Virus record (IMG/VR): IMGVR_UViG_3300046005_001038
Span: 1-64,000 of that record
Direction: 5' to 3' (one strand)
DNA: 64,000 nt
Source: a virus
Under the pieces are notes generated by a model. It was not told where the DNA came from and searched no databases. It saw only the letters and a list, made by a program, of their open reading frames with translations. Positions 3,745 through 59,952 of this stretch are shown here, in pieces. How positions within the stretch are numbered: position 1 is the stretch's first letter; each line of letters opens with the position of its first letter. Made by a program: the position numbers and the translations under genes.

Positions 3745-3918
3745 ATGGAAACATGGGTACTAATAATTATTTTACTTGGTGGTAACTCACCTGTGATTTC
3801 TTCAGTTGAGTTTAAAGGTAAAGAAAATTGTATGACAGCTAAATCAGATTTGCATAATTCAACTGTTATAGGACGGTCTAAAATTGACTGTTATTTGAAA
3901 TATGGAGAGTTAAAATGA
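3745..3918 (+). CDS. small membrane-anchored/exported protein (57 aa)
   Basis: METWVLIIILLGG hydrophobic N-terminus, F..KENC; AGGAG RBS; upstream TTGACA promoter. Confidence 0.55.
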   Translation: METWVLIIILLGGNSPVISSVEFKGKENCMTAKSDLHNSTVIGRSKIDCYLKYGELK

Positions 3919-4072
3919 AAGTGAAAGAATTGATTGAATTACTATCTGTAATGAATGAAGAATTAGAAGTTAAGACCTTTAGTAAGGTTGCTGGTTATGT
4001 TCCATTGGAGTATTCAGAAGTTAGTTATACAGTAGAATATGAAGATGAAGTTGGTTTTATTGTGATAGGAGA

Positions 4073-4882
4073 ATGAAAATGAGTTTATTAAGTACGGCAA
4101 TTAAAGCAACACAAAAGCAAGGAATGCGTGCTTGTTTGTATGGTCTGGAAGGAGTAGGCAAGTCTAGCCTTGCTGGGAGCTTGAATAATACGTTATATAT
4201 TGCTGCTGAAAAAGGGTACACTAACTTAGATTTAGAACGCAATACCGTTGTTGAAATCAATGAATTTACAGATTTGTTGAACTTGTTTTCAGAAGTCAAC
4301 AGTTTGATTTCATCAGGTGAAAATAAATTTGAAAATATCGTTATTGATTCTGTATCAGCAGTAGAACGAATGTTACACAGATATATTATTAGTACCGACC
4401 CTAAGTCTGTTAATAATCCAAATATCACAATGCTCTCAGCTCTGACAGGTTATGGGTCTGCGTTTAACGTAGCTAATCGGTATTTTACGGACGTATTAGC
4501 ATGGGGGGATTTCTTCGTATCGCAAGGAATTAACTTTATTTTTACGGCACATTGTTTTACGGACGTGCAGAAGGATAGTGAATATCAGATGGAGTTCAAT
4601 TTCATTGACGTAAATTTATATTCACCCAAGTCCAGTAAAAATATAGGAACTCGCGAACTTCTCACACAATTCGTAGATTTGTTAGGATATTTACATTTTA
4701 GTAAGCCTGATAACAATAACGATAAACCTAAGCGTGTTTTAGGTGTTCAGCTTAACGATAGATACCGTGCTAAAAACAGATTTGATGTTGACGATGTTAT
4801 CACAATCCCTCGCGACAACGCTTGGAACGCTGTAGCAGACGTTATTTTAGAATGTTCAGGCAAAGACTACCGTACAACTTAA
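4073..4882 (+). CDS. Sak4-like AAA ATPase / recombinase
   Basis: Walker A YGLEGVGKSS, Walker B IVIDS, FTAH, AKNRF; near SSB and nuclease genes. Confidence 0.85.
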   Translation: MKMSLLSTAIKATQKQGMRACLYGLEGVGKSSLAGSLNNTLYIAAEKGYTNLDLERNTVVEINEFTDLLNLFSEVNSLISSGENKFENIVIDSVSAVERMLHRYIISTDPKSVNNPNITMLSALTGYGSAFNVANRYFTDVLAWGDFFVSQGINFIFTAHCFTDVQKDSEYQMEFNFIDVNLYSPKSSKNIGTRELLTQFVDLLGYLHFSKPDNNNDKPKRVLGVQLNDRYRAKNRFDVDDVITIPRDNAWNAVADVILECSGKDYRTT

Positions 4883-34627: not shown

Positions 34628-37600
34628 TTACTTGTTTCCTTGTGGTTGAATCAATTGAATCGAGTTTGTCATTTGTAACTTCGTTTTGTTTAATTAATGT
34701 TCGGAAAGCTGCTTGCATGACTTCAATTTGTGCTTGCAACAGTTTGTTTTGTGTTTTCAACTCAGCTAATTCTTCTTCATTATTACCTGAATCATTAGCG
34801 GCAATCGCTCTCACACCTAATGAACCATTTATATTGGCCAAAGGCATGATTGCTTCTGAACCTGATTCACCCATCAAGCCCATATTGAACACAGTGGGTT
34901 TAGACACAATGCCATTTGTGAATGCACCGCCTGATGCAAAATAACCATTTGTAGAGAAATACCCATTTTTAGCATCCATATATTTTTCAAAATCTTGCCA
35001 ACTACTAAGTCCTAGCTTGCGTAACATTCCTTCTACATCGGTGTAGTCACCATAATAACCTACATTTATCGCTTCACCTTCTAAGACGGAAGTTCCGTAA
35101 TTAAAATATCTAGGTGTTAGTGTAGGTGTTGACGTAGCAATATTAGAAGGAGGTATGCTTGGAATTACTGGTGATGGTACAACAGGTAATTCAGGTACAA
35201 CTGCTGTAGGAATTTGAACTCCTACTGAAGCTCCCGCGTTAGCTGCATTTTGTGCAGTTATTTGTGCGCCGATTGCTTGTAATGCTGCTAAAGCTGCGTT
35301 GGCTGCGGCAACAATATCATTGATAGATTGAATCAATGCTGAGGTATTAGCTGCTGGAAATACCATTACTGGAATTTCAATATCTGAGAAAGTTTCGATA
35401 ATTCTAGCTAGCTCATCTTTTAAAGCCGTACCGCCTCCAACACCAATACCTGCCATAAGTTCGTTAAACGCAAGTGCGAATTCGCTTTCAGGGTTTAATG
35501 TCAATTTAACATCTTCAACAAATGTTGCCAGAATGCCTGTTGCAGAATCTAAAGCAGATGTCTCAGTATCTAACAATAGTTGGCTGATATTCAAAGCAGA
35601 AATCATGTCGGTCATACCTACGGAGATTGTACCTAACACATCGGTCATTGTATCGGTTAATTCCGCAGTAGGAACTTCTATTTTGGTTTTAACAACGGCA
35701 TTGTATTTATCTAACGCTTCAGATAGGTTTGTCATAAATGAAATTTTATCTTCATCTGACATTTCAGGTGTTGCAACCACACTTAATGTAGCAGTCGTGG
35801 TTAAAACTAGATTTTCGGCAGCTTTTGCTTTGATTGAATCATTAAACGTACTTATTGCCACTAATACTGTGCTACTAATTGCTTTTTCAAACACATCTAA
35901 CGCAGGAAGTTTTAACGAATCTGAAATTTCAGAGCTTGATTTTAATGTGTTATAAGCAGCGTAAGATTTCTCAATAGCATCGCCGATAACAGTACCTTTT
36001 AAAGCATCAGGTAGAGCGAAGATTCCTGTTTTAATATCTTCTAATAAATCAACCATTCGCAACTGCGGGTCAACTTGTTGTGGTAGCACACTTACAGCAT
36101 CAATCACTTGTTGTATCAACTCATTACCTTCTTTAGACGAACCATAGAAGTTACGAATTGCAGTAATTGTTTGGTCTGCCGTACCTGTGATAGAACCTTC
36201 AATAGCTGATTTAATATCAGCAACTGTTTTTCCAGTATTAGCAATATCGGTTTGTGCCATATATTTATTAAGATTAGCAATTGTGTTTTTGTCAGTAATA
36301 CCCGACATATCAATTGAACCCACACCCGTAGATGATTTATAAGCTGATAATTGATACGCCAATTTACCTTGTGCTGTATCTAATTGTGACTTAGTAGAAC
36401 CTAATTGTGTGATTTGTAATCCGATAGCCCAATCAGCGATAGCGCGTCTAAAATCGCGTAATTGCTGTATTGATTTTGACAAATCAACTTTATTTAAATT
36501 ATCAACATACATTTTGACCATTGCATCAGACTTTTTCAAAGTACCTTCAACACCAGAAATCGTTTCGTTTCCATACTTTTTAATCATGTCGTTTTTGTAC
36601 TTTTCTAATGCAAGTACCTTTTTACCTGCTTCATCAGCTAATGCGTATTTAGCATCGTAACCAGCTTGTTCTGCATCATCTAAGAATGATTTCGCCTTAT
36701 TGATGTCACGAGTTAATTTCATGGTTTCGATGAATTCTTTCGCTGCACTAGATGCTTCTCCGAACACAGAATTGATTTCAGCGATTTGAATGTTAAATTC
36801 AACTAAGCTACGATTATATTCGTCTAAACCTGCAACAGCTAATGCGTTTGATAATTCTTTACGTTTATTAGCAATGTCTTGTGCTGTAGCTACTTTAACT
36901 TCTGTCAAACCCGATGCGTTTCTAGCATCTGTAATGGCTTTAGTTTGACGTAACATATCAATGTAGGTATTTGCCGCATCTGAACCTTCACCGAACATAT
37001 CGTTAATCGCTTTAATATCTTTTCCTAATTGATAATCTCCTTTTTGTGTATCAGACATTCCTGCTACTAATAAGTTATCCTTCAACTCATTGTATTTACC
37101 TGTAACTAAAGATTGCTCTTTTGCACGTTGTAAAATCAATATGTCGTTTATTTTAGTAGACGATTCATTATTCATTTCTCTAGCAATTCGCAATTCTTCA
37201 GCATTTTGCATCATCCGTTTGTTATATTCAGATGTTAATTGATTTTCAGACGTAATCAAACTATCAATCGATAACTTTTGTTTTGCTGCATAGTCAGCTT
37301 TGTTTTTCGTATCAATCAATGCGTCGGAATATGCTTTTAACGAGCGTTCAGTCACATTAACTGTTTCAGTAATACCGTAGAACTTCTTATCAGTTTCAGA
37401 TAACGTCGCGTTCCAACTAACGATGCTAGGTAATAAATCGCTGTCGATTTGAGAAACTAAAGAACTAATATCTGTACCGATACTCAATTCAGTCAATGAA
37501 TCTTTTGAAGCCTTAGCAGTCATGTAATCTTTAGACTTTGTAGTCGATAAAATTACATCTGTAATTTTTAACACAGATTGTTGTCTTTCTAACACAGTTT

Positions 37601-40600
37601 GTAATGTTTCTGTAGAATCAATTAAGCCTGATACGACTTTGTTGATGCCTTCTGATTGTGACGTAAGATTATTCATCCAATAATCCATCACCTCAAGTTG
37701 TGTTGACGTATCTTTAATTGATAGAATCGTACTAACTTGTTTCAATAAATCATTAAATATCGGATTAGATTTATCGATTTTAAACGTACTTGCGATAAAT
37801 GCTTCAGGATTCTCTTTAGCAGTAGTAAGCTGTTGTAAACGAGTTTCGTTTTTATCAAACATAGATAGCATACTTGTCACAAACAATCCGTTTGCACCAG
37901 TTTGATTATCCAACTTACCTTTGATTTCATCTAAATCTGACTTTTTAATATCCGATGTTTTCAAATTCATCAATGCGTCAACAGAACCTTTAGCGAATCG
38001 GTCTGCCCATTTCTGAACACGCTCTGAGTCAAAACCCGCCATGTCTTGGGGTAATAATGCTTTAAGACTAGACGTGCCTGTTAATAGATTTTGTAATGTG
38101 GTAGAATTTTCATTCACACTTTTGAAAGTTGCATCAATTGACTTTTTCAAATCTAAATTATTCAAATCTGTGTTCACAGTGGTGATATTGTAACCTGGTG
38201 AAACAGAGAACATTTTTGAATAGTTTTCAATGTTACTTACAATACGAGTTTCATTGTCTTTTAACACTTTACTGAACGTATTGAAGAACGCTGTGTCTTT
38301 AGTAACGTCTTTTTTATTTTTAGCATCTAAGTCAGAGAGTTTTAAATCAACAATCTTACTTACATCACCACCTGTGTATTTATTAGCATAGGCTTTTGCG
38401 TAAGTAGCATTTGTTTTTTCTAAATCACTACCTGTCACAGAAGATTCTGTAATTTTAAAGTCAGTTGGAGCTTTAGTTGTGAGTGAATTGAGCAATGTAA
38501 TCTGATTATTGATATTAGTAAAAATCTCACTTAGACCTTTATTCGCAATATCAAATTTTTCACCTTTAGACGTTACGACATTAAAGAATTTGTCAATAGC
38601 TGACGTAAAGTTTTTCAAACCATCATTTGCTTTACCTGTTGAATCGTACATTTGAATCAACTGCTCAGACATAATTGCAAAACCTAACGTGCCTAAATTT
38701 TTACTTTCTACACCGAGGTCTTTGAATTTTTCATTAACTTGGTTAATATCAATCGCAACTCGCGTTAAGGTTTCAAATGCGCCTTCACCCATGCGTTTAA
38801 ATCTATCTAAGAATCCATTAGTCACATCATCTGCAATTAAATCGAATGTTGTGTTTAACGAATCACTTACTTTTTTCGTAATAGCATCAGATTTCAAACC
38901 TTTCAAATCTAATTTTATTTTAGGAATAATCGCTTTAGTATCGCTTACTACTTGCAATCCTAAGATGTTCAAAGATTTAGATAGTTCTGTTGAAAAATAA
39001 CCAAACACACCTTTAAATGAATTTGTCATTTCATTATTAACACCATTGATAGTGTCATAAATCTTAACTGTGTCTGAGAACCAACCTTTAGTTGTCGCTT
39101 TTATTTTTGAATAATCATAAACTTTTAGCGCGTCAGCAGCTCCGCCAATGATGAATTGGTTAGCTTGCATTGTAATACCTGAACCAATTGCTTCAAATTT
39201 AGTTTTACCGATACCTAATAATTTACCTAAACCAAATTGTAATCCCGCTAAAATTAATCCACCAGCAAGTCCTATGATAGCTCCCCCAACCATCATCCCT
39301 GTTGAACCAACCCCCACTCCAACAGAAGTGGCAGTCCCCATACCTACCGCAGTTGCGGCAGACGCAGCTAATGCACCACCAGCAAGCCCCATACCAGCAG
39401 CTCCCATCGCAGTTGATGAAACCAAACCAGCTCCAATCATACCAGCAGAACCCGCAGGATTTTTAGAACTTGCTGTCATTCCAGTAGTAGAACCAATCCA
39501 ACCACCTTGTCTGTTTACCGCTAACGAGATTGTGTTATCAACTGCCTTTGTGATATTTTTAAATCCATCCGCAATATCGCGTAATGCACCGTATTCTTTC
39601 ACATGGATAGATTGCAATGTATTTGTGATATTATCGACTGAGCGAGAAGATTCTGACGATGCTCCGTACACAGAGCTAGTAAAAGCCGATTCAGGTGTTG
39701 AAGTGTCTACAGGTTTAGTTTTGAAAAGCGTTTGCATTAAACTAATCGCCATTCCACCAATCATTGCTGCTCCACCAGCTAACCAGTTTCCTGACATCAT
39801 CGCATTCATACCGATGTTCATTAAACTTGAGCTAATATTAGACACAAGGTTTTTAAACATATCGCGAAACGCATCAGTAAAGGATTTACCTTTAGTCAAC
39901 ACATCTGTGAACATGGTTGTAAAACCTGATGTAATTGAACCTGTCACAGTATCTTTAACAGAGGTTAATAGTTTTAGATTTTCTCTCGTATCAATCAAAT
40001 CTCTAATTTCTTGTGCCTGTGTTCCTGTCGCTCCTGCTTGTTTGATTTTAGACTGTTTTTCTAACTCTAATGTAGAAGTTGTCAAAGAGGTTAGTAAATC
40101 GTCATTACCTTTAATTAAATCAGGTATAACATTACGTTGTTGTTCTTTTAGTGATAATTGAATACGATATAAGTCAGTAATTTCTTTATTCTTAATAAGA
40201 AGTTCAGAATCTGTATCAAGCAACATAGTTTCAGTATCTACTCTCATTGCAGCGTAAGCAGAATTTCCAGTTTGTTTGAATAATTTTTCATATTCATCAG
40301 CCATATCTGTTAATTCTTTTTTGGTTGCTGATAATTCATCACGCAATTTTAATTGCTCTTTAATCGAACTATCTATTGCAGGAACAGCGAATCCACCGAG
40401 TTCTTTAGCTAAATCTTTTGCTTTTAGTGACACATCTTGACGTTCTCGCAATTCATCAAACGCATGACTATAAGCATACCCAGCTTTTTCTAGCTTTAAT
40501 AAATCTTGAAGTTCACCAGCTCTACGACTACGCTCTGTATCAGCAATTTCATTCGCTTTAATGTATGCTTGGTCTTGCCAACCAATTTGTTTTCTAATTA

Positions 40601-43600
40601 AAGTTAATTGTTTATCTAATTCTTCAGCTCTTTTAGCATCTGACTTTAAAATAGCTTCATTGCGTTGTTTCTTGACTTCATCAAACTCAGCCAATCTTGA
40701 TTGTAATGTAACGAATTCTTGTGATGCTTTTACTTGTGATTCTGAACCTCCCATTCTGCCCATTACTAGAGGAACATAATCTTTTGTTTCAGGTCGAAGA
40801 TGTGACATCCAATCTTTACCATCAACTTTTGATTTTTCTATTACTGATTTAACTCGATTTTCACCAGCGTTGTATCCCGCTAGTGCTTTAGTTAAATCAC
40901 CGTCAAACATTTTCAATAATTGATTTAGATATTTGTTAGCAGCTTTCACGGCTTGCTCAGGGTCATAAGCATCTATGCCGAAACCTTTAGCTGTAGCTGG
41001 CATAAATTGCATCAATCCCATTGCACCTGCTCTTGAAGTAGCGTTTGCTATACCTCGTGATTCTTGTGCTGCAACAGCTCTTAGCAATTCTGGAGAAACT
41101 TGACCTGAAGCATATTTTTGAAATAAAGGATTGTACTTGTCTAATCTTTTTACTGTATCCTCAGTATCAACAACAGCTTTGATTTTGATAGGATTTTTAA
41201 CAGAATGTAACTCGACCTGTTTATTGACTTTTTCTAATTCTTGCTTTAACCATTCATCATCTACTTGGATTTTAGGTGTGAGTGATTCGAGAGTTGATTT
41301 TGCTTCTCTGGCTGATTTGTCTGCTGCTTCTTTTGCTAAATCAGCTTCTACTTTCGCAGCAGCTTTATTTCTAGCATCAGCTACCATTTCAGGAGCTTTG
41401 ACTGATAAAAAGTCATAGTATTCTGTTGTACCGACAGTACCTGCTTTTTCTTTTAATTGTTTTGGTAAGAAATTGTATGTTTTATCTAATAAATCATTTG
41501 TTTCTTTTTTAATGCGGAAAAGTTTATCGTTTGCTTGTGTAAGCTCTTTTGTTTTCTCTATCTCTTGCGATAATGCTTTACCGAAAGCCGTTTTAATATC
41601 TAATTGTTCTACTTGAAGTTTATTCAACCCTTGTGTACGTTTTGCTTCGGCTATTTTTTCTTCTTCATTGATACTGTCGATTTCCTTTTGTTTTTTTAAC
41701 TGCTCATCTAATAAAGCTCTCTCGGCTAATAATTTAGATTTATCATACACTCCTATCACATCAGAAACAGCAGTTCCTAAACGCGATTGTTTTTCGTGCG
41801 CGTTAATAGAACTATCTATTTCACGCATACGTTCAATTAGTTTTTGTTGTTCAGTTTTAGAAGCCTGTTCTTCTTGACTTTTAGAATAACCGTACATCCC
41901 AAGACCTGCAACTGCACCAACAGCTAAACCTATAGGACTTCTACTCATTAAAGCCATACCCGCAGCCGCTTTTTCTGAATTTAATGCTACTGTAATTAAA
42001 GCTGCGCCTAATGCAGTTACTCCAGAAACTAATAAATCCATGTGTTCGCCAATTGCTAACATGGATTTAAAGAATAAATCGCTGGCATGACTACCTTCGT
42101 TCATTCTTCCGACGAATTTAGTAAAATAAGTTTCTACTTCAGTAAAACCTTGTGCAAATGTTTTATGCGTTTTTTCAAAAGTTTTATTTATCTCATCGTT
42201 ACCTAAAAGGATAGCTTTAAAAAACGCTTCAGATGTTATTTTTCCATCATACATAGCATTTCTTAAATCAGCTATTGTTTTAATGTGTGTTGGTGAGTTT
42301 TTAATAGCTTCTATTTCAGCAGCAGTCGCTCCTCGTAAAGCAGCTTCTTCTAATTTTATTGTTTTAGCTGCTTCATCATAATGTTTAACTACAATTCCCA
42401 TCACATTAGGCATACTATCAAGAATAGACTTAAACTCTTGACCTCTGACCGTCACACCGCCTAACGCTTGTTCTAACTGTAACAAGCCACCTCTAACTGC
42501 ATTAGGGCTTGTACCCATGATAGCCAGAGCTTTTGTTACTGTGTCAATAGCCTTTACTGTATCGGATTGAGTAGCGTTAAGTGACTCGGAAGCTCTTGAC
42601 ATTCTTAAATACAATGTAGTAATAGAGTCTAATGGAGCGCGAGCATCGACAGCAAGTTTAAACAATCTTTCTTGCATACCAGCCGCATTACCTGTCTTTT
42701 CAGTAGCGATGCCTACAGCATTGGTAAAATGTGTCCAATGGTCAGCGTATTCCATAATCTGACGACCTGACATTGCTACACCAACCATCATTAAGGTTTG
42801 TTGAAGTTTGTTTAGACTGTTTGAGAGTTCGTTGATGACTGATGTTTGGTTACCTGAACCTGTTTGACGACTTTGTGAAATTAACTGTTGTTGACGATAT
42901 GCTAAGTTATCTGCTTCTTGTCTACGAATTTCAGCTTCTATTCTAGCTGAATCTGAAAATCTAGTTTGATTTTGAACATTAACACTTCCCATTTGAGAAG
43001 TCATTGAAGATAAACGTGGTGGAACATAGGTAGATGATTGTGACATCGCAGCAGTCATCGCGTGAGTGTGTGCAATTTTATCAGCAAGAATAGCAGCATC
43101 AATTTCTTTTAATGTTTGTCTACGCGCTCTCCATGCAGCAAGTTCTCTTTCCATATCAGTTTGAATAGCTTGTTCGTATGCAGAGTTATAACTACGTTGG
43201 TCAGACAACTCTTTATCTTTTCTAGCTTTTTCATCAGCCATATATTTTAAATGAATCGCTCCTAATTCATTATAATGATTATCAATCTGTTTTTTAGCGT
43301 CTAAATATCCTTTTAAATCTCTCTCCCACTCTTTATAGTTCACACCGTCTGACGCGCGAGTAGCAGCTACATTAGGTCTATCGGTAGCCATTTTGTTATA
43401 TTCAGCAGTAACAACTACTGACGCTTTAACTGAGTTTTGTAATTGTGTATTTATTTCCCTAGAGATGTTAGCTACTTGCTGACCTATATTTTTGTTATCT
43501 ATCAGCAAACCAATGATAATTTCTTTGTGACTAATATCAGCTATTAAAGAATTTATTTTCGATACAGATTCGCTTACCTTTTTTACTGTAGCGTCCATCG

Positions 43601-43880
43601 ACTTAGAAATCTTTTCAACATTATCAATATCAACTGTTATTTTAATTGGCTTTTCTAATTCCTTTTTATTCTTATTGATTTTTTCTTCGACACCAGCTAA
43701 AGGATTCGTATCAAATGATTTAAATTTTAATTCAATATCATTGATTGCTTTTAAAGTCTTTTCTAACGCGCTAAGATTAGTATTTGCGGTAGCCGCTTTC
43801 TCGCCCACACTCTGTAACGTACTACTCGCATTATCCGTTACTTTAACTTCAATACTGACGCTATTATCGATTTCTGACAT
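34620..43880 (-). CDS. tape measure protein with lytic transglycosylase (SLT) domain
   Basis: 3086 aa helical; tape-measure motif QLEQALGG..VRGQEF.SI; SLT QES..GAMGLMQFMP.TA..AGYNAG..ETKDYV; FASGG..GE.G.EAIMPL. Confidence 0.95.
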   Translation of the reverse strand: MSEIDNSVSIEVKVTDNASSTLQSVGEKAATANTNLSALEKTLKAINDIELKFKSFDTNPLAGVEEKINKNKKELEKPIKITVDIDNVEKISKSMDATVKKVSESVSKINSLIADISHKEIIIGLLIDNKNIGQQVANISREINTQLQNSVKASVVVTAEYNKMATDRPNVAATRASDGVNYKEWERDLKGYLDAKKQIDNHYNELGAIHLKYMADEKARKDKELSDQRSYNSAYEQAIQTDMERELAAWRARRQTLKEIDAAILADKIAHTHAMTAAMSQSSTYVPPRLSSMTSQMGSVNVQNQTRFSDSARIEAEIRRQEADNLAYRQQQLISQSRQTGSGNQTSVINELSNSLNKLQQTLMMVGVAMSGRQIMEYADHWTHFTNAVGIATEKTGNAAGMQERLFKLAVDARAPLDSITTLYLRMSRASESLNATQSDTVKAIDTVTKALAIMGTSPNAVRGGLLQLEQALGGVTVRGQEFKSILDSMPNVMGIVVKHYDEAAKTIKLEEAALRGATAAEIEAIKNSPTHIKTIADLRNAMYDGKITSEAFFKAILLGNDEINKTFEKTHKTFAQGFTEVETYFTKFVGRMNEGSHASDLFFKSMLAIGEHMDLLVSGVTALGAALITVALNSEKAAAGMALMSRSPIGLAVGAVAGLGMYGYSKSQEEQASKTEQQKLIERMREIDSSINAHEKQSRLGTAVSDVIGVYDKSKLLAERALLDEQLKKQKEIDSINEEEKIAEAKRTQGLNKLQVEQLDIKTAFGKALSQEIEKTKELTQANDKLFRIKKETNDLLDKTYNFLPKQLKEKAGTVGTTEYYDFLSVKAPEMVADARNKAAAKVEADLAKEAADKSAREAKSTLESLTPKIQVDDEWLKQELEKVNKQVELHSVKNPIKIKAVVDTEDTVKRLDKYNPLFQKYASGQVSPELLRAVAAQESRGIANATSRAGAMGLMQFMPATAKGFGIDAYDPEQAVKAANKYLNQLLKMFDGDLTKALAGYNAGENRVKSVIEKSKVDGKDWMSHLRPETKDYVPLVMGRMGGSESQVKASQEFVTLQSRLAEFDEVKKQRNEAILKSDAKRAEELDKQLTLIRKQIGWQDQAYIKANEIADTERSRRAGELQDLLKLEKAGYAYSHAFDELRERQDVSLKAKDLAKELGGFAVPAIDSSIKEQLKLRDELSATKKELTDMADEYEKLFKQTGNSAYAAMRVDTETMLLDTDSELLIKNKEITDLYRIQLSLKEQQRNVIPDLIKGNDDLLTSLTTSTLELEKQSKIKQAGATGTQAQEIRDLIDTRENLKLLTSVKDTVTGSITSGFTTMFTDVLTKGKSFTDAFRDMFKNLVSNISSSLMNIGMNAMMSGNWLAGGAAMIGGMAISLMQTLFKTKPVDTSTPESAFTSSVYGASSESSRSVDNITNTLQSIHVKEYGALRDIADGFKNITKAVDNTISLAVNRQGGWIGSTTGMTASSKNPAGSAGMIGAGLVSSTAMGAAGMGLAGGALAASAATAVGMGTATSVGVGVGSTGMMVGGAIIGLAGGLILAGLQFGLGKLLGIGKTKFEAIGSGITMQANQFIIGGAADALKVYDYSKIKATTKGWFSDTVKIYDTINGVNNEMTNSFKGVFGYFSTELSKSLNILGLQVVSDTKAIIPKIKLDLKGLKSDAITKKVSDSLNTTFDLIADDVTNGFLDRFKRMGEGAFETLTRVAIDINQVNEKFKDLGVESKNLGTLGFAIMSEQLIQMYDSTGKANDGLKNFTSAIDKFFNVVTSKGEKFDIANKGLSEIFTNINNQITLLNSLTTKAPTDFKITESSVTGSDLEKTNATYAKAYANKYTGGDVSKIVDLKLSDLDAKNKKDVTKDTAFFNTFSKVLKDNETRIVSNIENYSKMFSVSPGYNITTVNTDLNNLDLKKSIDATFKSVNENSTTLQNLLTGTSSLKALLPQDMAGFDSERVQKWADRFAKGSVDALMNLKTSDIKKSDLDEIKGKLDNQTGANGLFVTSMLSMFDKNETRLQQLTTAKENPEAFIASTFKIDKSNPIFNDLLKQVSTILSIKDTSTQLEVMDYWMNNLTSQSEGINKVVSGLIDSTETLQTVLERQQSVLKITDVILSTTKSKDYMTAKASKDSLTELSIGTDISSLVSQIDSDLLPSIVSWNATLSETDKKFYGITETVNVTERSLKAYSDALIDTKNKADYAAKQKLSIDSLITSENQLTSEYNKRMMQNAEELRIAREMNNESSTKINDILILQRAKEQSLVTGKYNELKDNLLVAGMSDTQKGDYQLGKDIKAINDMFGEGSDAANTYIDMLRQTKAITDARNASGLTEVKVATAQDIANKRKELSNALAVAGLDEYNRSLVEFNIQIAEINSVFGEASSAAKEFIETMKLTRDINKAKSFLDDAEQAGYDAKYALADEAGKKVLALEKYKNDMIKKYGNETISGVEGTLKKSDAMVKMYVDNLNKVDLSKSIQQLRDFRRAIADWAIGLQITQLGSTKSQLDTAQGKLAYQLSAYKSSTGVGSIDMSGITDKNTIANLNKYMAQTDIANTGKTVADIKSAIEGSITGTADQTITAIRNFYGSSKEGNELIQQVIDAVSVLPQQVDPQLRMVDLLEDIKTGIFALPDALKGTVIGDAIEKSYAAYNTLKSSSEISDSLKLPALDVFEKAISSTVLVAISTFNDSIKAKAAENLVLTTTATLSVVATPEMSDEDKISFMTNLSEALDKYNAVVKTKIEVPTAELTDTMTDVLGTISVGMTDMISALNISQLLLDTETSALDSATGILATFVEDVKLTLNPESEFALAFNELMAGIGVGGGTALKDELARIIETFSDIEIPVMVFPAANTSALIQSINDIVAAANAALAALQAIGAQITAQNAANAGASVGVQIPTAVVPELPVVPSPVIPSIPPSNIATSTPTLTPRYFNYGTSVLEGEAINVGYYGDYTDVEGMLRKLGLSSWQDFEKYMDAKNGYFSTNGYFASGGAFTNGIVSKPTVFNMGLMGESGSEAIMPLANINGSLGVRAIAANDSGNNEEELAELKTQNKLLQAQIEVMQAAFRTLIKQNEVTNDKLDSIDSTTRKQVNG

Positions 43881-46771: not shown

Positions 46772-46899
46772 ATTGTATATCTCCAATAGTTATGTTAAAA
46801 TTTTATTGCCTAATTGCAATACACGCGATAATAGCATAGTGATTGGAAGATGTCAAGTTTTTTGTTGTATTTTATTTTGTTTGGTGATAGGAGTTGAAA

Positions 46900-47742
46900 A
46901 TGGAAGAAAGATTACATTGTATCTATATGATTACGAGTCCGAATGGTAAAAGTTATGTTGGACAAACGATGAACTTTGAAAAAAGAATGCGGGAACATAA
47001 TAAAACGACTAGCGGTTGTTTAGCTATCCGAGATGCTATTTTAAAATATGGTTTTGAAAATATGAAAGTTGAAATCTTATTGAAGAACTTAACGATTGAT
47101 GAAGCTAATAAGTATGAAGAATTTTATATTAAAGAACACGGTACTTTATCTCCAAATGGATATAATCTAAGAGAAGGTGGTTTAAATCATACTTTGTCGG
47201 ATGAAATTAAGAGAAAGATTGGAGATAAGAATAGAGGGAGAATTAAAACGCCTGAACAAATAGAAGCGAATAGGCAGAAATTATTAGGTAGGAAAAGCAG
47301 TGATGAAGCTAGATTAAAAATATCAATTGCTTTAAAAGGTGTACCTAAATCAGAAGAACATAAAGAGAAAACTAGACAATCTCATATTGGAATGAAAGCG
47401 AGTGAAGAAGCTAAGAAGAATATGTCTTTAGTTCATTTAGGAAAACCATTAGCTAAAGAAATAGTAGAGAAATTATCTAAAATAAGAGATGAAAAATTAT
47501 TCAATAAAGAGTTCCCACACTATTTAGCTAACATTTCTAATTTACCCGACGATACTGAATTTAGCACTAAAGAATTAGCAGATTTGTTAAATCTAACAAA
47601 AGGTACTTTAACTAAAAGAGTTATCAGAGGTAATTTTCCTAACAGTTACCATACATTCGTTAAAGGAGGTAAAAAGTATTTAATACCGATTAAAGACGTT
47701 CATGATTTTTATACAAAAAATAACCTCTCGGTATTGAACTAG
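46900..47742 (+). CDS. GIY-YIG homing endonuclease (NUMOD3 + HTH), inverted within tail operon
   Basis: CIY.ITSPNGKSYVGQT, NGYNLREGG, FSTKELADLLNL. Confidence 0.9.
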   Translation: MEERLHCIYMITSPNGKSYVGQTMNFEKRMREHNKTTSGCLAIRDAILKYGFENMKVEILLKNLTIDEANKYEEFYIKEHGTLSPNGYNLREGGLNHTLSDEIKRKIGDKNRGRIKTPEQIEANRQKLLGRKSSDEARLKISIALKGVPKSEEHKEKTRQSHIGMKASEEAKKNMSLVHLGKPLAKEIVEKLSKIRDEKLFNKEFPHYLANISNLPDDTEFSTKELADLLNLTKGTLTKRVIRGNFPNSYHTFVKGGKKYLIPIKDVHDFYTKNNLSVLN

Positions 47743-56093: not shown

Positions 56094-57152
56094 TTAAGAT
56101 TCTTGTGTAATTAAACGAGCAATGTTGACTTGTTTGCGTTCAGGGTAACGACGCGACCAGTTAGCAGCAGTCGCTAATGCAGTATTACTTGCACCGCCTT
56201 CTGTAGCAGTACCGATGTACGAAGTACCTTCAGGTGCAACCACAAATTCTTGACGACTGTATAAGGTTTCAATACCACCACCATTACCGCCGTTAGGAGC
56301 GCGGAACACTTCACTAGGAATACGAGGAGAACCCATACCTAATTGTAATGCACCACTACCTAAGATGTAAGTGTAGTATTTACCAGCCAATCCTGTACCA
56401 GAAACACCTGCTGGCATCATATTATCAGACACAACTTCCATATCCATAAATGTTGGAATGTTACGTTTTTCTTGTGAATCAGGTACAAAAGTAATCATGT
56501 TACGTTTTAACATACGCGCATATACAACAGGGTGTACTAACAATGTACGCAAACCATCCGCACTATCACCCATTGTTGCTAAGGTATCAATCAACAATTC
56601 AGCAGAGAAACGAGTTGTATCACTTGCTGATTGTGGTGTACCTGAAGGCAAACCTGTGTTTGTTGAAGCATCATAAGTTAAATCATATTGTGTATGCGTA
56701 TCTGAACCTGATGCCGCAGCATCGTTATCAGCAAATACACCTGCTAAGGTAGCAAGGAATGTTTTTTGTAAATCCCAAGCCCAATAAGATGCTACACGGT
56801 CACCAATACCTTTTAACGGGTCTGCACCTGTTAAATCTGCTGCTAAATCAGCAGCAGTCCATGATTGGTTTCTGCTCAAGCGTTGTTGAACGATTGACGC
56901 GCCTGTAATTGCATTCGGAGTAGAAGTAGCGGTATCATCTGAACTCGATACGTTAGATACGTTACGAACTAAATCTTTGTAGAAAGGCATTGTTACAATG
57001 TTACCGCCACCAGACAAGAAATTGTCTAAGAAGCCTGAACGTGCAACAGCACCTGATTGAATGAGTTTTGATTTTTCTTGTGTGCGTAAGAACACATACG
57101 GATTAAATACTTGTGGTACTAATAACGCTGTACTTAAAGTTGCGACTGCCAT
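56094..57152 (-). CDS. major capsid protein
   Basis: VPQVFNPYV, S.LIQSG, GG..V.MPF..DL, DLA..L.G.DP...IG.RVA.YW, NW.R....K. Confidence 0.9.
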   Translation of the reverse strand: MAVATLSTALLVPQVFNPYVFLRTQEKSKLIQSGAVARSGFLDNFLSGGGNIVTMPFYKDLVRNVSNVSSSDDTATSTPNAITGASIVQQRLSRNQSWTAADLAADLTGADPLKGIGDRVASYWAWDLQKTFLATLAGVFADNDAAASGSDTHTQYDLTYDASTNTGLPSGTPQSASDTTRFSAELLIDTLATMGDSADGLRTLLVHPVVYARMLKRNMITFVPDSQEKRNIPTFMDMEVVSDNMMPAGVSGTGLAGKYYTYILGSGALQLGMGSPRIPSEVFRAPNGGNGGGIETLYSRQEFVVAPEGTSYIGTATEGGASNTALATAANWSRRYPERKQVNIARLITQES

Positions 57153-57203
57153 TTGGAAATTCCTTTATTAAATTAGTTAATTGATTTATTCATATTTCAT
57201 CCT

Positions 57204-57257
57204 TTGCCCATGCAAGTAATTGAAAGTTAATTGTGTATTGTATCTACCCATGTAGAT
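57204..57257 (-). promoter_or_regulatory. pair of AUGG-tetraloop hairpins in capsid leader
   Basis: ATCTAC-ATGG-GTAGAT and TTGC-ATGG-GCAA downstream of TTGACT-17-TAGCAT promoter. Confidence 0.6.
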
Positions 57258-57337
57258 TTATCGCTGTATGCTACACGAAAAGTATTTAAAAGTCAAGCAT
57301 TATTTAGTGTAGATGTCAAATTTATTTTCGATGAATA

Positions 57338-57495
57338 AAAAGAAACCCTTTAACAGTTTTAATTATTAAAGGGTCGAGTGTAGGAGGACTAAAAATGAGA
57401 ACAAACCAAGACTATGAAATCTTATTAAAAACTCTGTTTAGAATTCTTAATAAGATTATCTTATCTATTGCTAGAAAAAGATAATCTTAACTGGA
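57338..57495 (-). ncRNA. candidate stand-alone small RNA (~155 nt)
   Basis: TTGACA-17-AATAAT promoter (57500-57528), two long overlapping hairpins, terminator 57338-57375, no ATG on transcribed strand. Confidence 0.6.
57395..57484 (+). CDS. candidate 29-aa amphipathic peptide antisense to the sRNA
   Basis: AGGAGG-7 nt-ATG; MRTNQDYEILLKTLFRILNKIILSIARKR. Confidence 0.35.
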   Translation: MRTNQDYEILLKTLFRILNKIILSIARKR

Positions 57496-57532
57496 GGTAA
57501 TTATTTCACACTATAATCACAGTGTCAAGCAT

Positions 57533-58312
57533 TTATTTAGCTTGTTTAGATAATCTTTCCGCTAAGGTCGGGTTCTCTGTCCACATCTGTGCTTGTTCAG
57601 TTAAATTACCTGTCGCAAAAGGATTGTTGCCTTTATACGCTCCATTACCACCTTTTGCACCACCACCTACGTTATCACCCCAGTAATAAGGGTTACTTGC
57701 TTGTTGTTCACTTAACCACACTTCAAATGGCATATAACCTGTCACACCGTTGATACCGTCTTTCGTTAAGAATTTACCATCATCAGTTTCTGTGAATAAG
57801 CGTTCTGCTTTCATTAGCACGGTTTCTTCAAAACGAGGGTCAATTTTAGCAGCTTTGATTTTAGCCACAAATTCATCATTCATTCGACGTTGACGGTCTA
57901 CTTGTTCAAAGTACGCAACACGCTGTTCTAATTCAGCCGCTTTCTTAGAAATTGCATCACGTTCAGCCATCAAAGGTTGTGTTTGACTTTTTGCGCGTGC
58001 ATTTGCCATTTCTTCTAACTTAGCTACATCTACCGTAGAACCTTTCGCTAATTCTTCTAATTCAGCGATTCTCGCTAATTGTGCTTGTACAGATTCAGGG
58101 TCTAATTCGCCAAAATGTGATAACTTCGCTTTGACTTGTTTGTGGTCATTGCGTTCTTTTTCTAATGCGCCTTGCACTTTCGTGAATTCACTTAACGGTT
58201 TCACACCTGCTACATCCAACACATATTTGCTACCATCAGCCGTTGGTGTGTAGAATGAATGTAGTGTTTCATCTAATGAATCTAAACTTGTAATTTCGTA
58301 TTCTAATGCCAT
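57533..58312 (-). CDS. capsid scaffolding protein
   Basis: Y....DG.KY.LDV.G, ALEKER, coiled coil, GGGAKGG..NPF; between portal and capsid. Confidence 0.85.
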   Translation of the reverse strand: MALEYEITSLDSLDETLHSFYTPTADGSKYVLDVAGVKPLSEFTKVQGALEKERNDHKQVKAKLSHFGELDPESVQAQLARIAELEELAKGSTVDVAKLEEMANARAKSQTQPLMAERDAISKKAAELEQRVAYFEQVDRQRRMNDEFVAKIKAAKIDPRFEETVLMKAERLFTETDDGKFLTKDGINGVTGYMPFEVWLSEQQASNPYYWGDNVGGGAKGGNGAYKGNNPFATGNLTEQAQMWTENPTLAERLSKQAK

Positions 58313-58333
58313 TTTAATATCTCTCGTTTTGTC

Positions 58334-58370
58334 GGACACCATTGCCCATTTTGTGAACCACCATTGGTTC
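58334..58370 (-). promoter_or_regulatory. pair of AUGG-tetraloop hairpins in scaffold leader
   Basis: GAACCA-ATGG-TGGTTC and GGGCA-ATGG-TGTCC. Confidence 0.6.
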
Positions 58371-58446: not shown

Positions 58447-59952
58447 TCAATCTCCGTTAATCGGGTCATTATTCACAGTAACACGGTCAACATTCATCGA
58501 TGCTGTCGGTTGTTGTACTCCGTTACTTGAATTATCAGGAACTTCTATCGGAGGAGATAAGTCATCCTCTTTCATTAACTTACGTTCTTCTTCATAACTA
58601 AGTTTCGTATAACCTTGGTCTTTAAGAATTGTATGAACTGTTTTATCAGCTAACGGTAATAAGCCTGTATTTTTAGCAGCAATCAACTGTGCAAAGTCTT
58701 GACCTTTCATATCTTTGTCAGAGAACTGTAAGTTAGGAATAACTTCAACTTTTGAATCATCTAATCCCATCCATCTAGCACACTTCTTCAACAATTCTTC
58801 GAGTGCATAAGCAGATGTGACAGCAACTTGATTTAAGTTAGCCGTTTGTGCAGCCATACGAATTTTAAGTGCGTCACCTGATTCTTGTTTAGAATTTCCA
58901 TTCATCAACTGACCAGCTTTTGTCACAGCCGCTTGTTTATCGTTCTCAATTGCTTGACGCATTTCAGCCAAACCAGATGAACTCACACCGATAAACTTCG
59001 CATCACCACCCATATCAACATCAATTCTTGCACCTGCGCCAACACGAGTTGCTTCGTCTTGTCCATGACTAATACCACCTACCACAACTAAGGTATCTTG
59101 TCCTTGCATATACAAAGTGTGACGATAATCCGCTTCAGCCCGATAGATGGCAAGTGATAGATTCGCTAAACCTAATAACGGTGGTACATCAGGTGTCGCT
59201 AAAATATCTTTCGAGTTAGCGAACACAAAGGGGATTTCATTTAAGGATTGACCACGATAAATAGGTGTCACGAAGGATTCTAACGTAGGATTTTCGTTTG
59301 AATAGTTCATCACAGATTGTGAATATGTTGCATTCTGATAATCTTCTTCATTCACATTAAAATCACCTAACGCTAAGAACCGATAGCGAGGTTGTTCTGA
59401 CCATGACACCCCTTGTCGCATCCATGTGGTTTCGTCCAACACAACTAAGTTAAGGGCATTAAATCCTACGTTGTCAGAACCTTCATCCCAATTGACGATG
59501 TTTTCTGCATTGTACATTGCAATATACGGATTACCACTACCACTTGAGTCAATATCTAGCAATAAACCTACACGACCTGTAATGAACTGTTGTGAATGAA
59601 TTCTACGCAATAAATGGTCTAAATTATCACCGTTAATCGTCGCTTTAGTACGCAAGAATTCCATTTCTGGCGGTAATTTGATTTGTGTCGGTCTATAGTG
59701 TAACAATCCGATATAACTTTCGACTGCATCATGCACAAAGTTGTGATAGACAGCGCGTTTCTTATAAGATTCATAGGACTTATAACCATCTTCACTAACA
59801 CTCATTCCATCTAAAACTTGACCGCCTGTAGCAGGTAAATACGTCTGTCCTTTAGATTTAACTTGTTTCTCACCTTTGTAACAATCACGCATAATCAACC
59901 AATCTTCGATTGATTCATCATATAGCGGATGTGTTGAAACTGTGCTTGTCAT
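58447..59952 (-). CDS. portal protein (DUF4055-like)
   Basis: HP.Y....W...RD...GE..VK..G..YLP, Y..Y..RA, IPFVF, PPLL.LA.L.LA.YR..ADY. Confidence 0.9.
   Translation of the reverse strand: MTSTVSTHPLYDESIEDWLIMRDCYKGEKQVKSKGQTYLPATGGQVLDGMSVSEDGYKSYESYKKRAVYHNFVHDAVESYIGLLHYRPTQIKLPPEMEFLRTKATINGDNLDHLLRRIHSQQFITGRVGLLLDIDSSGSGNPYIAMYNAENIVNWDEGSDNVGFNALNLVVLDETTWMRQGVSWSEQPRYRFLALGDFNVNEEDYQNATYSQSVMNYSNENPTLESFVTPIYRGQSLNEIPFVFANSKDILATPDVPPLLGLANLSLAIYRAEADYRHTLYMQGQDTLVVVGGISHGQDEATRVGAGARIDVDMGGDAKFIGVSSSGLAEMRQAIENDKQAAVTKAGQLMNGNSKQESGDALKIRMAAQTANLNQVAVTSAYALEELLKKCARWMGLDDSKVEVIPNLQFSDKDMKGQDFAQLIAAKNTGLLPLADKTVHTILKDQGYTKLSYEEERKLMKEDDLSPPIEVPDNSSNGVQQPTASMNVDRVTVNNDPINGD

What the first reader, a model, noticed from the sequence alone, without database searches (positions are those of the whole stretch)
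57338..57528. Stand-alone sRNA between scaffold and capsid, antisense to a hidden amphipathic peptide ORF
Seen: a - strand promoter (TTGACA-17-AATAAT, TG-extended) and terminator delimit ~155 nt with no ATG. It holds two overlapping hairpins (AAGATTATCT/AGATAATCTT; AATCTTATTAA/TTAATAAGATT) and an apparently unpaired CATTTTTAGTCCTCCT (anti-AUG + anti-SD). The opposite strand reads AGGAGG-7-ATG MRTNQDYEILLKTLFRILNKIILSIARKR, a cationic amphipathic helix. Inference: either a type I toxin-antitoxin-like pair, or a trans-acting anti-RBS sRNA against host or phage mRNAs. No clear + strand promoter is visible.
Basis: partly seen in the sequence, partly recalled or inferred. Interest (0 to 1): 0.75.

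Follow-up and report, generated by a model that had tools for sequence, protein, structure and literature searches.

The report
Phage small RNA mirroring ribosome sites
Between the scaffold and capsid genes of an uncultured 80-kb lake phage sits what looks like a gene for a ~157-base non-coding RNA, kept in three related phage lineages, whose exposed stretch is the mirror image of a ribosome-binding site; it probably blocks translation of other messages, while the 29-residue peptide on the opposite strand is not conserved and is probably not a gene.

Summary
On the - strand there is a near-consensus sigma-70 promoter (57528-57500, 11/12, TG-extended). It is followed by ~157 nt with no start codon and an intrinsic terminator (57375-57344 plus U run). 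The predicted RNA forms three hairpins, then a 31-nt unpaired stretch holding CAU-N7-CCUCC, then the terminator.

Relatives decide between the two readings. The promoter-body-terminator unit recurs at the same place in L052, L175 and the L003/L006 group (capsids 47-61% identical to the window's). It is absent as a whole from L159 and L162, which keep only terminator plus capsid promoter. Inside the RNA only the unpaired anti-RBS stretch keeps its sequence. The 5' hairpins differ, and four different terminator stems all pair.

The antisense ORF is 29, 11, 12, 16 or 8 codons long, with no shared sequence and no + strand promoter found. The toxin-antitoxin reading is therefore not supported.

The seed fits the phage's own start regions better than shuffled seeds do, above all those of + strand (DNA-metabolism arm) genes. 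No single target is proven, no transcript data exist, and the host is unknown.

Verdict: a credible new phage-encoded anti-RBS sRNA, a new member of a known kind. This scan has noted similar candidates in other phage genomes.

The parts
57500..57528 (-). Promoter P1: -35 TTGACA (57528-57523), 17-nt spacer, TG (57508-57507), -10 AATAAT (57505-57500)
   Evidence: 11/12, TG-extended. The same GCTTGACA...TGAAATAAT sits directly after the scaffold stop codon in L003/L004/L006/L007, L052 and L175. It is one of about 12 TTGACA-N14-TGnTAnnAT promoters in the genome, five of them with TGAAATAAT.
57336..57493 (-). Predicted non-coding RNA, about 157 nt. The 5' end is inferred from the promoter and the 3' end from the terminator U run.
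   Evidence: No ATG or GTG on this strand. Fold -39.9 kcal/mol, z = -5.5. No Rfam family at gathering score; the best sub-threshold matches (rliB E 0.057, PsrR1 E 0.095) are far below gathering.
57407..57489 (-). Three 5' hairpins (57489-57451, 57450-57425, 57424-57407), with an alternative pairing between 57457-57440 and 57435-57418
   Evidence: This part is not conserved in sequence in L052 or L175.
57378..57404 (-). Conserved single-stranded seed UUGUUCUCAUUUUUAGUCCUCCUACAC: anti-AUG CAU at 57397-57395, anti-SD CCUCC at 57387-57383
   Evidence: Predicted unpaired. Nearly identical in L052 and recognisable in L175 and the L003/L006 group, while flanking RNA differs. Fits the phage's own start regions better than shuffled seeds.
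57334..57375 (-). Intrinsic terminator: 12-pair stem-loop 57375-57344 and U-rich tail
   Evidence: Relatives carry four different stem sequences at this position, all pairing and all followed by a U run.
57395..57484 (+). Antisense 29-codon ORF (MRTNQDYEILLKTLFRILNKIILSIARKR) behind AGGAGG-7-ATG; judged not a gene
   Evidence: Length and sequence are not conserved in relatives. No + strand promoter found. No PHROG match.
57268..57296 (-). Promoter P2 of the capsid gene (TTGACT-17-TAGCAT). Context, not part of the RNA.
   Evidence: 9/12. Conserved as CTTGACnnTTAAnnnnTTTTnGTGTAnCnTA in all relatives, including those without the sRNA.
57159..57357 (-). Conserved non-coding island: terminator 3' arm and tail, spacer, P2, and capsid leader with two AUGG-loop hairpins (57257-57242, 57215-57204)
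   Evidence: 80-100% identical between the window and L052/L175 in most 40-nt windows, while flanking coding sequence is mostly 40-75% identical. Variants in the same lakes keep 57157-57347 but replace 57347-57700.
57544..57558 (-). Third copy of the AAGATTATCT palindrome, inside the scaffold gene's 3' end. It is complementary to 57491-57477, so the two arms bracket P1.
   Evidence: Meaning unknown. L052 has a different 12-bp inverted repeat bracketing the -10 of its P1.

Best explanation
This is a stand-alone gene for a small non-coding RNA of about 157 nt.

How it is made (inferred from sequence, no transcript seen): host sigma-70 RNA polymerase starts at P1, a near-consensus extended -10 promoter placed directly after the scaffold stop codon. 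It stops at the intrinsic terminator that also ends the portal-scaffold operon. The same sequence therefore also forms the 3' UTR of the scaffold message.

How it acts (inferred): the RNA folds into three fast-evolving 5' hairpins. These are followed by a conserved, unpaired pyrimidine-rich stretch (CAU-N7-CCUCC) immediately 5' of the terminator hairpin and U tail. That stretch is the mirror image of a Shine-Dalgarno sequence, spacer and AUG. It most likely pairs with the ribosome-binding regions of other messages and blocks 30S binding, possibly with a host chaperone such as Hfq.

Likely targets (inferred): the best predicted partners are start regions of the phage's own + strand genes in the DNA-metabolism arm. 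Examples are the operon at 3745-4882 and the GIY-YIG endonuclease gene at 46894. Host targets are equally possible, because the host is unknown.

Shown here: the promoter, terminator, fold and conservation pattern. Inferred: transcription, pairing and the identity of targets.
For: 1. Signals. The promoter scores 11/12 with TG, and the terminator has a 12-pair stem and U run. Both belong to families used throughout this genome.

2. Conservation of the unit. P1, body and terminator occur at the same position in L003/L004/L006/L007, L052 and L175. Their capsids are only 47-61% identical to the window's. L159 and L162, whose capsids are 82% and 70% identical to the L003 group's, lack P1 and body together and keep only terminator plus P2.

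3. Selection pattern typical of base-pairing sRNAs. Between the window and L052, the seed TCATTTTTA(G)TCCTCCTACAC is kept while the 5' hairpins are unalignable. The terminator stem is wholly different but still pairs. Between L052 and L175 (capsids 92% identical) the sRNA body is only 45-70% identical.

4. Structure. z = -5.5 for the window, and -4.3 and -3.7 for the L006 and L003 regions (the L003 stretch folded includes the promoter and lacks the terminator). The CU-rich stretch is predicted unpaired in all four homologues folded with pair probabilities (window, L175, L003, L006).

5. No coding potential on the transcribed strand, and the antisense ORF is not conserved.

6. Fit to start regions. 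The mean duplex energy of the seed with the 113 start regions is -11.4 kcal/mol, against -9.3 +/- 0.6 for shuffled seeds. For + strand genes z = -3.9, with 11 genes at or below -16 kcal/mol against 2.4 expected, reached by 0 of 200 shuffles. For - strand genes z = -2.3. The + versus - difference has p = 0.0008.

7. Precedent. Phage-encoded, terminator-ended sRNAs are documented: lambda PreS, LPR2 and 6S (bioRxiv 10.1101/2024.10.31.621285), StxS (PMC7547250), and late intergenic sRNA candidates of phage LUZ7 (PMC9163698).
Against: No transcript has been seen. No RNA run holds this phage, so the start, end and abundance are predictions.

No single target stands out. A genome-wide duplex scan gave nothing above shuffled seeds except the RNA's own antisense strand, and the longest exact complement elsewhere is 11 nt.

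The better-than-shuffle fit to start regions partly restates the observation, since an RNA that mirrors one RBS will fit other RBSs.

The host is unknown, so host targets could not be searched.

Covariation between the seed and target start regions could not be tested, because relatives are known only as fragments of the late region.

P1 resembles promoters found in front of probable early genes, so the timing of expression is unclear.
Confidence: 0.55

Rival explanations
1. Promoter-proximal terminated leader, like lambda PR'-6S RNA or StxS. P1 would be the true high-level promoter of the capsid and tail genes. Transcripts normally stop at the terminator and read through only when a phage antitermination factor, or the RNA itself acting in cis, modifies RNA polymerase. 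The short RNA would then be mainly a by-product.
For: A strong, constitutive-looking promoter is followed within ~160 nt by a terminator, directly upstream of the most highly needed late gene. In lambda and Stx phages the same layout gives 6S RNA and StxS (PMC7547250; bioRxiv 10.1101/2024.10.31.621285).
Against: A second promoter, P2, lies between the terminator and the capsid gene. It is conserved in all relatives, including those with no P1, so capsid transcription does not need read-through.

No match to the three Pfam Q-antiterminator families was found in the complete genome.

The RNA is G-poor and offers no alternative helix that could compete with the terminator's 5' arm.

The primary sequence of the unpaired stretch is conserved while the terminator stem is not, which fits a pairing seed better than a by-product.
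Confidence: 0.17
2. Type I toxin-antitoxin-like pair. The + strand encodes a 29-residue cationic amphipathic peptide, and the - strand RNA is its antisense repressor.
For: A perfect AGGAGG-7-ATG precedes a 29-codon ORF. The - strand RNA is fully complementary to its start region. Every relative also has an SD-spacer-ATG on the antisense strand of its CU-rich stretch.
Against: The ORF is 29, 11, 12, 16 or 8 codons long in five homologous units, and the amphipathic helix exists only in the window. A 5-nt indel between the window and L052 shifts the frame.

No + strand promoter-like site was found upstream.

The peptide has K, R or N every few residues and no run of about 18 hydrophobic residues, which known type I toxins have (direct reading; family knowledge). 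It has no PHROG match.
Confidence: 0.05
3. Cis or near-cis regulator of the capsid message. The seed would pair with the short-ORF ribosome-binding region in the capsid leader (GGAUGAAAUAUGAAUAAAUC, about 57202-57183). This would tune capsid translation relative to scaffold, as part of one mobile regulatory cassette.
For: In all five phages the best predicted site in the capsid leader includes the region just after the second AUGG hairpin (window -19.7 kcal/mol, 4% of shuffled seeds as good). The sRNA seed, P2 and the leader are far better conserved than the flanking genes.
Against: p is only 0.04-0.13 per phage against shuffled seeds. Cognate sRNA-leader pairs are no better than non-cognate ones. 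The leader site does not rank among the best sites genome-wide. The GGAG-rich spot is the only purine-rich place in the leader, so any CU-rich RNA lands there.
Confidence: 0.1
4. No RNA function. Promoter-like and terminator sequences would be kept for DNA-level reasons, for example as binding sites for a regulator at the AAGATWATCTT palindromes or as an insulator between two operons.
For: Three copies of AAGATWATCTT cluster within 106 nt around P1. L052 has a different 12-bp inverted repeat bracketing its -10. Terminator-promoter junctions are common in this genome.
Against: The palindromes are not conserved in relatives, whereas the promoter hexamers, the unpaired seed and terminator pairing are. 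P1 and the body are gained or lost together.
Confidence: 0.08

Closest known systems
Phage-encoded Hfq-dependent sRNAs: lambda PreS (LPR1), LPR2 and 6S RNA; VP882 VpdS (bioRxiv 10.1101/2024.10.31.621285)
   Same: Short phage transcripts that act, or are proposed to act, by imperfect pairing with host and phage messages near their ribosome-binding sites. At least PreS carries a poly-U tail.
   Different: No sequence or Rfam similarity. Those come from temperate coliphages or vibriophages and have measured transcripts and targets. Here the phage is uncultured, the host is unknown and nothing is measured. The seed here mirrors a complete RBS rather than matching a specific site.
StxS / lambda 6S RNA from the late promoter PR' (PMC7547250)
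   Same: A strong promoter followed closely by a terminator, upstream of late genes, yields a short regulatory RNA.
   Different: Those units depend on the Q antiterminator, and PR' is the only late promoter. Here no Q family was found, and a separate conserved promoter P2 follows the terminator.
Pyrimidine-rich anti-SD sRNAs of bacteria: RsaE/RoxS, LhrC, 6C (PMC6486639), cyanobacterial PsrR1 (Rfam RF02701)
   Same: Exposed C/U-rich motifs pair with Shine-Dalgarno regions. PsrR1 is among the best sub-threshold Rfam matches (21.8 bits, E 0.095).
   Different: The score is far below gathering (42 bits), so this is not a member. Those are chromosomal and mostly show CCC/UCCC in hairpin loops. Here the motif is a linear stretch that also includes the anti-AUG.
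c4 RNA of phages P1/P7 and sar RNA of P22 (own knowledge)
   Same: Small phage RNAs that mask a ribosome-binding site.
   Different: Those act on one defined antirepressor message encoded at the same locus. Here no message is encoded opposite (the ORF is not conserved), and no neighbouring target was supported.
Late intergenic sRNA candidates of Pseudomonas phage LUZ7 (PMC9163698)
   Same: Abundant, non-coding transcripts under 250 nt from an intergenic space of a lytic phage, with their own start site and terminators; function unknown.
   Different: Unrelated phage family. Those RNAs were observed by sequencing, whereas this one is only predicted.

Membership tests
Trans-acting base-pairing sRNA (bacterial/phage, Hfq-type architecture) | Own promoter | tested here: met
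   11/12 extended -10 promoter, conserved in sequence and position in three lineages. Activity not measured.
Trans-acting base-pairing sRNA (bacterial/phage, Hfq-type architecture) | Rho-independent terminator with U tail at the 3' end | tested here: met
   Four different stems in relatives all pair and are followed by U runs.
Trans-acting base-pairing sRNA (bacterial/phage, Hfq-type architecture) | No protein-coding capacity on the transcribed strand | tested here: met
   No ATG or GTG in 57493-57336 on the - strand.
Trans-acting base-pairing sRNA (bacterial/phage, Hfq-type architecture) | Conserved, accessible seed | tested here: met
   Unpaired in all four folds with pair probabilities. Sequence is kept while the neighbouring hairpins diverge.
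Trans-acting base-pairing sRNA (bacterial/phage, Hfq-type architecture) | Defined mRNA target(s) with complementary site | tested here: inconclusive
   The set of phage start regions fits better than for shuffled seeds. No single outlier was found and the host is unknown.
Trans-acting base-pairing sRNA (bacterial/phage, Hfq-type architecture) | Discrete transcript in vivo; chaperone binding | not testable with these tools
   No RNA run holds the phage.
Type I toxin-antitoxin | Conserved small toxin ORF | tested here: not met
   29, 11, 12, 16 or 8 codons in homologous units, with no shared sequence.
Type I toxin-antitoxin | Hydrophobic membrane-spanning peptide | tested here: not met
   The sequence has charged or polar residues every 3-4 positions and no long hydrophobic run (direct reading).
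Type I toxin-antitoxin | Promoter for the toxin message | tested here: not met
   No + strand promoter-like site upstream of 57395 in the scan. By eye the best candidate matches 8 of 12.
Lambda PR'-tR' / Q antitermination unit (6S RNA, StxS) | Q-family antiterminator gene in the genome | tested here: not met
   PF06530, PF03589 and PF06323 give no match in the complete 79.8-kb record.
Lambda PR'-tR' / Q antitermination unit (6S RNA, StxS) | Downstream late genes depend on read-through (no other promoter) | tested here: not met
   The conserved promoter P2 lies between the terminator and the capsid gene.
Any Rfam family | Match at gathering score | tested here: not met
   0 matches in the whole window. 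The best sub-threshold matches are rliB (E 0.057) and PsrR1 (E 0.095).

The most novel reading that the evidence does not exclude
The RNA would be an RNA-based counterpart of a translational repressor such as T4 RegA. It would be a mirror of the phage's own early-gene ribosome-binding signature, accumulate during infection and switch off translation of the DNA-metabolism arm. It would travel, together with the capsid promoter and its AUGG-hairpin leader, as a regulatory cassette exchanged among lake phages whose capsid proteins are less than 50% identical.
Probability: 0.2. Interest if true: 0.6.

Novelty: new member of a known kind. Interest (0 to 1): 0.42.

Why it matters
Few sRNAs of lytic or uncultured phages have a known role. 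This is a clean, testable candidate with a strong promoter, a short RNA, a clear seed and a short list of predicted start-region partners. If confirmed, it would add evidence that phages use anti-RBS RNAs to time their own translation or to silence host messages. It would also show that such RNA genes, together with the neighbouring capsid promoter and leader, are more conserved or more mobile than the structural genes around them. It also corrects an appealing but unsupported reading of a hidden toxin peptide.

Tried and rejected
**Searches for relatives and known families**
- Rfam at gathering score and at E up to 10: no family.
- tRNA/tmRNA search: none.
- DNA searches of the phage collection, near and distant: no match.
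- Capsid-based scan of metagenome contigs: only distant, GC-rich relatives with short intergenic regions.
- The pattern AAANCTNCATGGGTAGNT was too unspecific (106 hits).
- Relatives of the 57-residue product of 3745-3918: none.

**Expression data**
- No RNA holder is listed among public runs.
- Contigs of four lake-water runs were laid on the stretch. They show variants but say nothing on expression.

**Target searches**
- Genome-wide duplex scan of the seed: nothing above shuffled seeds except its own antisense strand.
- Exact complement search: 11 nt at most, and not at start regions.
- A search for a gene starting ATGA(A/G)AAC behind GGAG: no convincing partner.
- sRNA against capsid leader: cognate pairs no better than non-cognate ones. 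With short seeds, p was 0.04-0.13.
- Scan of viral contigs for the seed: besides L052, the hits were ordinary gene starts in unrelated phages.
- Scan of genome contigs for the seed: generic strong RBSs, mostly in Firmicutes-type genomes (locus contexts not inspected), and no host clue.
- SD signatures in relatives' fragments: only late genes are available, so covariation could not be tested.

**Host identification**
- A protein-atlas look-up of the phage porin gave only 'Pseudomonadota/Verrucomicrobiota'.

**Antitermination**
- No match to the three Q-antiterminator families.

Full report
**Setting.** The window is the first 64 kb of a 79.8-kb IMG/VR virus record (estimated complete) with about 36% G+C, recovered from lake-water metagenomes. 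On the - strand lie the portal gene (58447-59952), the scaffold gene (57533-58342), a 380-nt intergenic region, and the major capsid gene (56094-57152). The capsid resembles those of siphoviruses such as Pseudomonas phage MiCath, PaMx25 and Nonagvirus, at 50% identity or less. No DNA-level relative exists among cultured phages.

**Checking the observation.**
- TTGACA-17-AATAAT with a TG two bases upstream lies at 57528-57500 (11/12).
- A 12-pair hairpin with a U-rich tail lies at 57375-57334.
- The roughly 157 nt between the inferred start (57493) and end (57336) hold no ATG or GTG.
- The two overlapping inverted repeats exist.
- The fold is -39.9 kcal/mol, z = -5.5. It consists of three hairpins, 31 unpaired bases containing CAUUUUUAGUCCUCCU, then the terminator.
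- The + strand reads AGGAGG-7-ATG followed by 29 codons.

The promoter is one of about a dozen TTGACA-N14-TGnTAnnAT promoters in the genome. Five of these share TGAAATAAT. The terminator belongs to a family of CCCT...AGGG-U-run terminators. Both signals are therefore of the kind this phage uses elsewhere. Terminator-then-promoter junctions recur along the late arm.

**Relatives.** Capsid-based and pattern-based searches of viral contigs found three lineages with the same layout:
- the L003/L004/L006/L007 group (capsid 60-61% identical to the window's);
- L052 (47%);
- L175 (49%; 92% identical to L052).

In all of them GCTTGACA...TGAAATAAT, or GTTGACA...TGAAATAAT, follows the scaffold stop codon within a few bases. 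A non-coding body of 134-209 nt comes next, then a terminator, then the capsid promoter P2, then a leader with two C-AUGG-G hairpins.

Two lineages, L159 and L162, have capsids 82% and 70% identical to those of the L003 group. They lack P1 and the body together and keep only terminator, P2 and leader. More distant, GC-rich relatives have short intergenic regions. P1 and the body thus behave as one unit that is gained or lost as a whole. It uses the terminator that also closes the portal-scaffold operon, so the same sequence is also the 3' UTR of the scaffold message.

**What is conserved inside the RNA.**
- Between the window and L052, the 5' hairpins cannot be aligned.
- The stretch TTGTT(C/T)TCATTTTTA(G)TCCTCCTACAC is nearly identical.
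- The terminator stem is entirely different but still pairs: GACCCTTTAA... against CAACCTCTATATTG...
- The U tract and everything downstream to the capsid start codon are 80-100% identical in most 40-nt windows.
- L175 keeps CATTTATGTACCCTCCTTACCTC and has a second CAU...CUCC motif near its 5' end.
- The L003/L006 RNAs keep GTTCATTT(T)GTGT...CTCC(C)TCTCTGCTTACC before the terminator and carry two more CU-rich motifs, one of them in a hairpin loop.
- In the four homologues folded with pair probabilities, the CU-rich stretch before the terminator is predicted unpaired.
- Between L052 and L175, whose capsids are 92% identical, the sRNA body is only 45-70% identical.

Fast-evolving scaffold hairpins, a sequence-constrained single-stranded stretch and a structure-constrained terminator together form the usual signature of a base-pairing small RNA.

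**The peptide reading.** The antisense strand of each CU-rich stretch always reads SD-spacer-ATG, because the RNA mirrors a complete ribosome-binding site. The ORFs behind it differ greatly:

| Unit | Antisense ORF |
|---|---|
| Window | 29 codons |
| L052 | 11 codons (MKTRTNKRNES) |
| L175 | 12 codons (MKTKNKTNNNES) |
| L003 | 16 codons |
| L006 | 8 codons |

The amphipathic helix exists only in the window, and a 5-nt indel separates the window's frame from L052's. No + strand promoter-like site precedes the ORF. The peptide is not hydrophobic in the way type I toxins are, and it has no PHROG match. I therefore reject the toxin-antitoxin reading (about 5%).

**The leader / antitermination reading.** A strong promoter closely followed by a terminator in front of late genes recalls lambda PR'-6S and StxS (PMC7547250). 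Three points argue against it here.
- The conserved promoter P2 sits between the terminator and the capsid gene, also in phages without P1.
- None of three Q-antiterminator families matches the complete genome.
- The G-poor RNA offers no antiterminator helix.

I keep this rival at about 17%, because unknown antiterminators cannot be excluded.

**Targets.**
- A genome-wide duplex scan and exact-complement searches gave no single outlier.
- Pairing with the capsid leader lands on or next to the same spot in all five phages, the short-ORF start after the second AUGG hairpin. It is only marginal (p 0.04-0.13) and no better for cognate than for non-cognate pairs.
- Prompted by earlier notes of this scan on other phages, I compared the seed with all 113 predicted start regions of this genome. 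The mean duplex energy is -11.4 kcal/mol, against -9.3 +/- 0.6 for composition-matched shuffles.
- For the 61 + strand genes (the DNA-metabolism arm) z = -3.9. Eleven genes lie at or below -16 kcal/mol against 2.4 expected, a count reached by 0 of 200 shuffles.
- For the 52 - strand (mostly structural) genes z = -2.3. The two arms differ at p = 0.0008, although the bare anti-SD core fits both equally.
- The best partners are the start regions of 4073-4882 (AAA_24 ATPase, -21.0), 46894-47742 (GIY-YIG endonuclease, -20.0) and 3745-3918 (first gene of the same operon as 4073, -18.3).

This test is partly circular, since a mirror of one RBS will fit other RBSs. It also could not be repeated in relatives, which are known only as late-region fragments. 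The host is unknown. The phage carries a porin-like gene whose nearest clusters are from Pseudomonadota and Verrucomicrobiota, which points to a Gram-negative host. Host targets therefore remain open. A scan of bacterial genomes for the seed complement returned generic strong RBSs and no host clue.

**Mechanism proposed.**
- Shown: the signals, the fold and the conservation pattern.
- Inferred: host RNA polymerase makes the RNA from P1, and the RNA ends at the shared terminator. Its unpaired CAU-N7-CCUCC stretch next to the terminator and U tail pairs with SD-AUG regions and blocks initiation. The targets would be a set of phage early messages, host messages, or both. A chaperone such as Hfq is plausible but untested.
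- Confidence is 0.55.

**Comparison with known systems.** In mode of action this resembles phage sRNAs such as PreS, VpdS and StxS, and the pyrimidine-rich anti-SD sRNAs of bacteria. It belongs to none of their families. Late intergenic sRNA candidates of unknown role have been seen in the lytic phage LUZ7 (PMC9163698). This scan has already noted similar anti-RBS RNA candidates in other uncultured phages, one of them also between scaffold and capsid genes. This is therefore a new member of a known kind.

**Limits.** Gene starts for the target statistics come from my own simple ORF and SD rule.

Noticed in passing
window 57159-57357; L052 and L175 equivalents: The non-coding stretch from the terminator tail through P2 and the capsid leader is 80-100% identical between phages whose capsid proteins are 47-49% identical, in most 40-nt windows. 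Either this regulatory cassette is exchanged by recombination or it is under stronger constraint than the genes around it. Lake-water contigs also keep 57157-57347 while replacing 57347-57700.
   Followed up: partly
window 57257-57242 and 57215-57204; L159, L162, L168, L197, L207, L216, L220, L221, L227 capsid leaders: Small hairpins with the loop (C)AUGG(G) precede the capsid gene in this phage and in many distantly related phages (capsids 45-60% identical). Their stems differ but still pair. This looks like a widespread operator for an unknown RNA-binding factor.
   Followed up: partly
window 57202-57176; L052 and L175 equivalents: A six-codon ORF in the capsid leader (MNKSIN in the window; MNKQLI in L052 and L175) follows an SD-like GGA(G), just after the second AUGG hairpin. 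In the L003/L006 group a longer ORF at the same place overlaps the capsid start.
   Followed up: no
window 20955-20994; L052 1395-1429: Terminator-like hairpins whose loop holds the -10 element of the next promoter: TTCGACGAAG-tgtggtatgat-TCTTCGTCGAA in the window, and ATTCTGTGGAAG-tgtgaaataat-CTTCCACAGAAT at P1 of L052. This is a compact terminator-promoter design.
   Followed up: no
L027-L051 (for example L028 6104-6134): Apparently unrelated phage contigs (their flanks share no similarity with this locus) carry a promoter nearly identical to the capsid promoter P2 (CTTGACTTTTAAGTATTTTTAGTGTAGCGTA). This hints at a shared promoter class with a conserved spacer (TTAA...TTTT.GTGTAGC).
   Followed up: no
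window 57452-57462, 57478-57488, 57547-57557: Three of the five matches to AAGATWATCTT in the 64-kb window cluster around P1. The outer arms (57558-57544 and 57491-57477) bracket the promoter. In a read-through scaffold message they would form a 15-bp helix that competes with the sRNA's first hairpin.
   Followed up: partly
window 46894-47742 (+): A GIY-YIG/NUMOD3/HTH homing-endonuclease gene sits on the opposite strand inside the late arm. Its start region is the second-best predicted partner of the sRNA seed.
   Followed up: partly
window 34620-43880 (-): A single 3086-codon ORF lies in the late arm. It was not examined.
   Followed up: no
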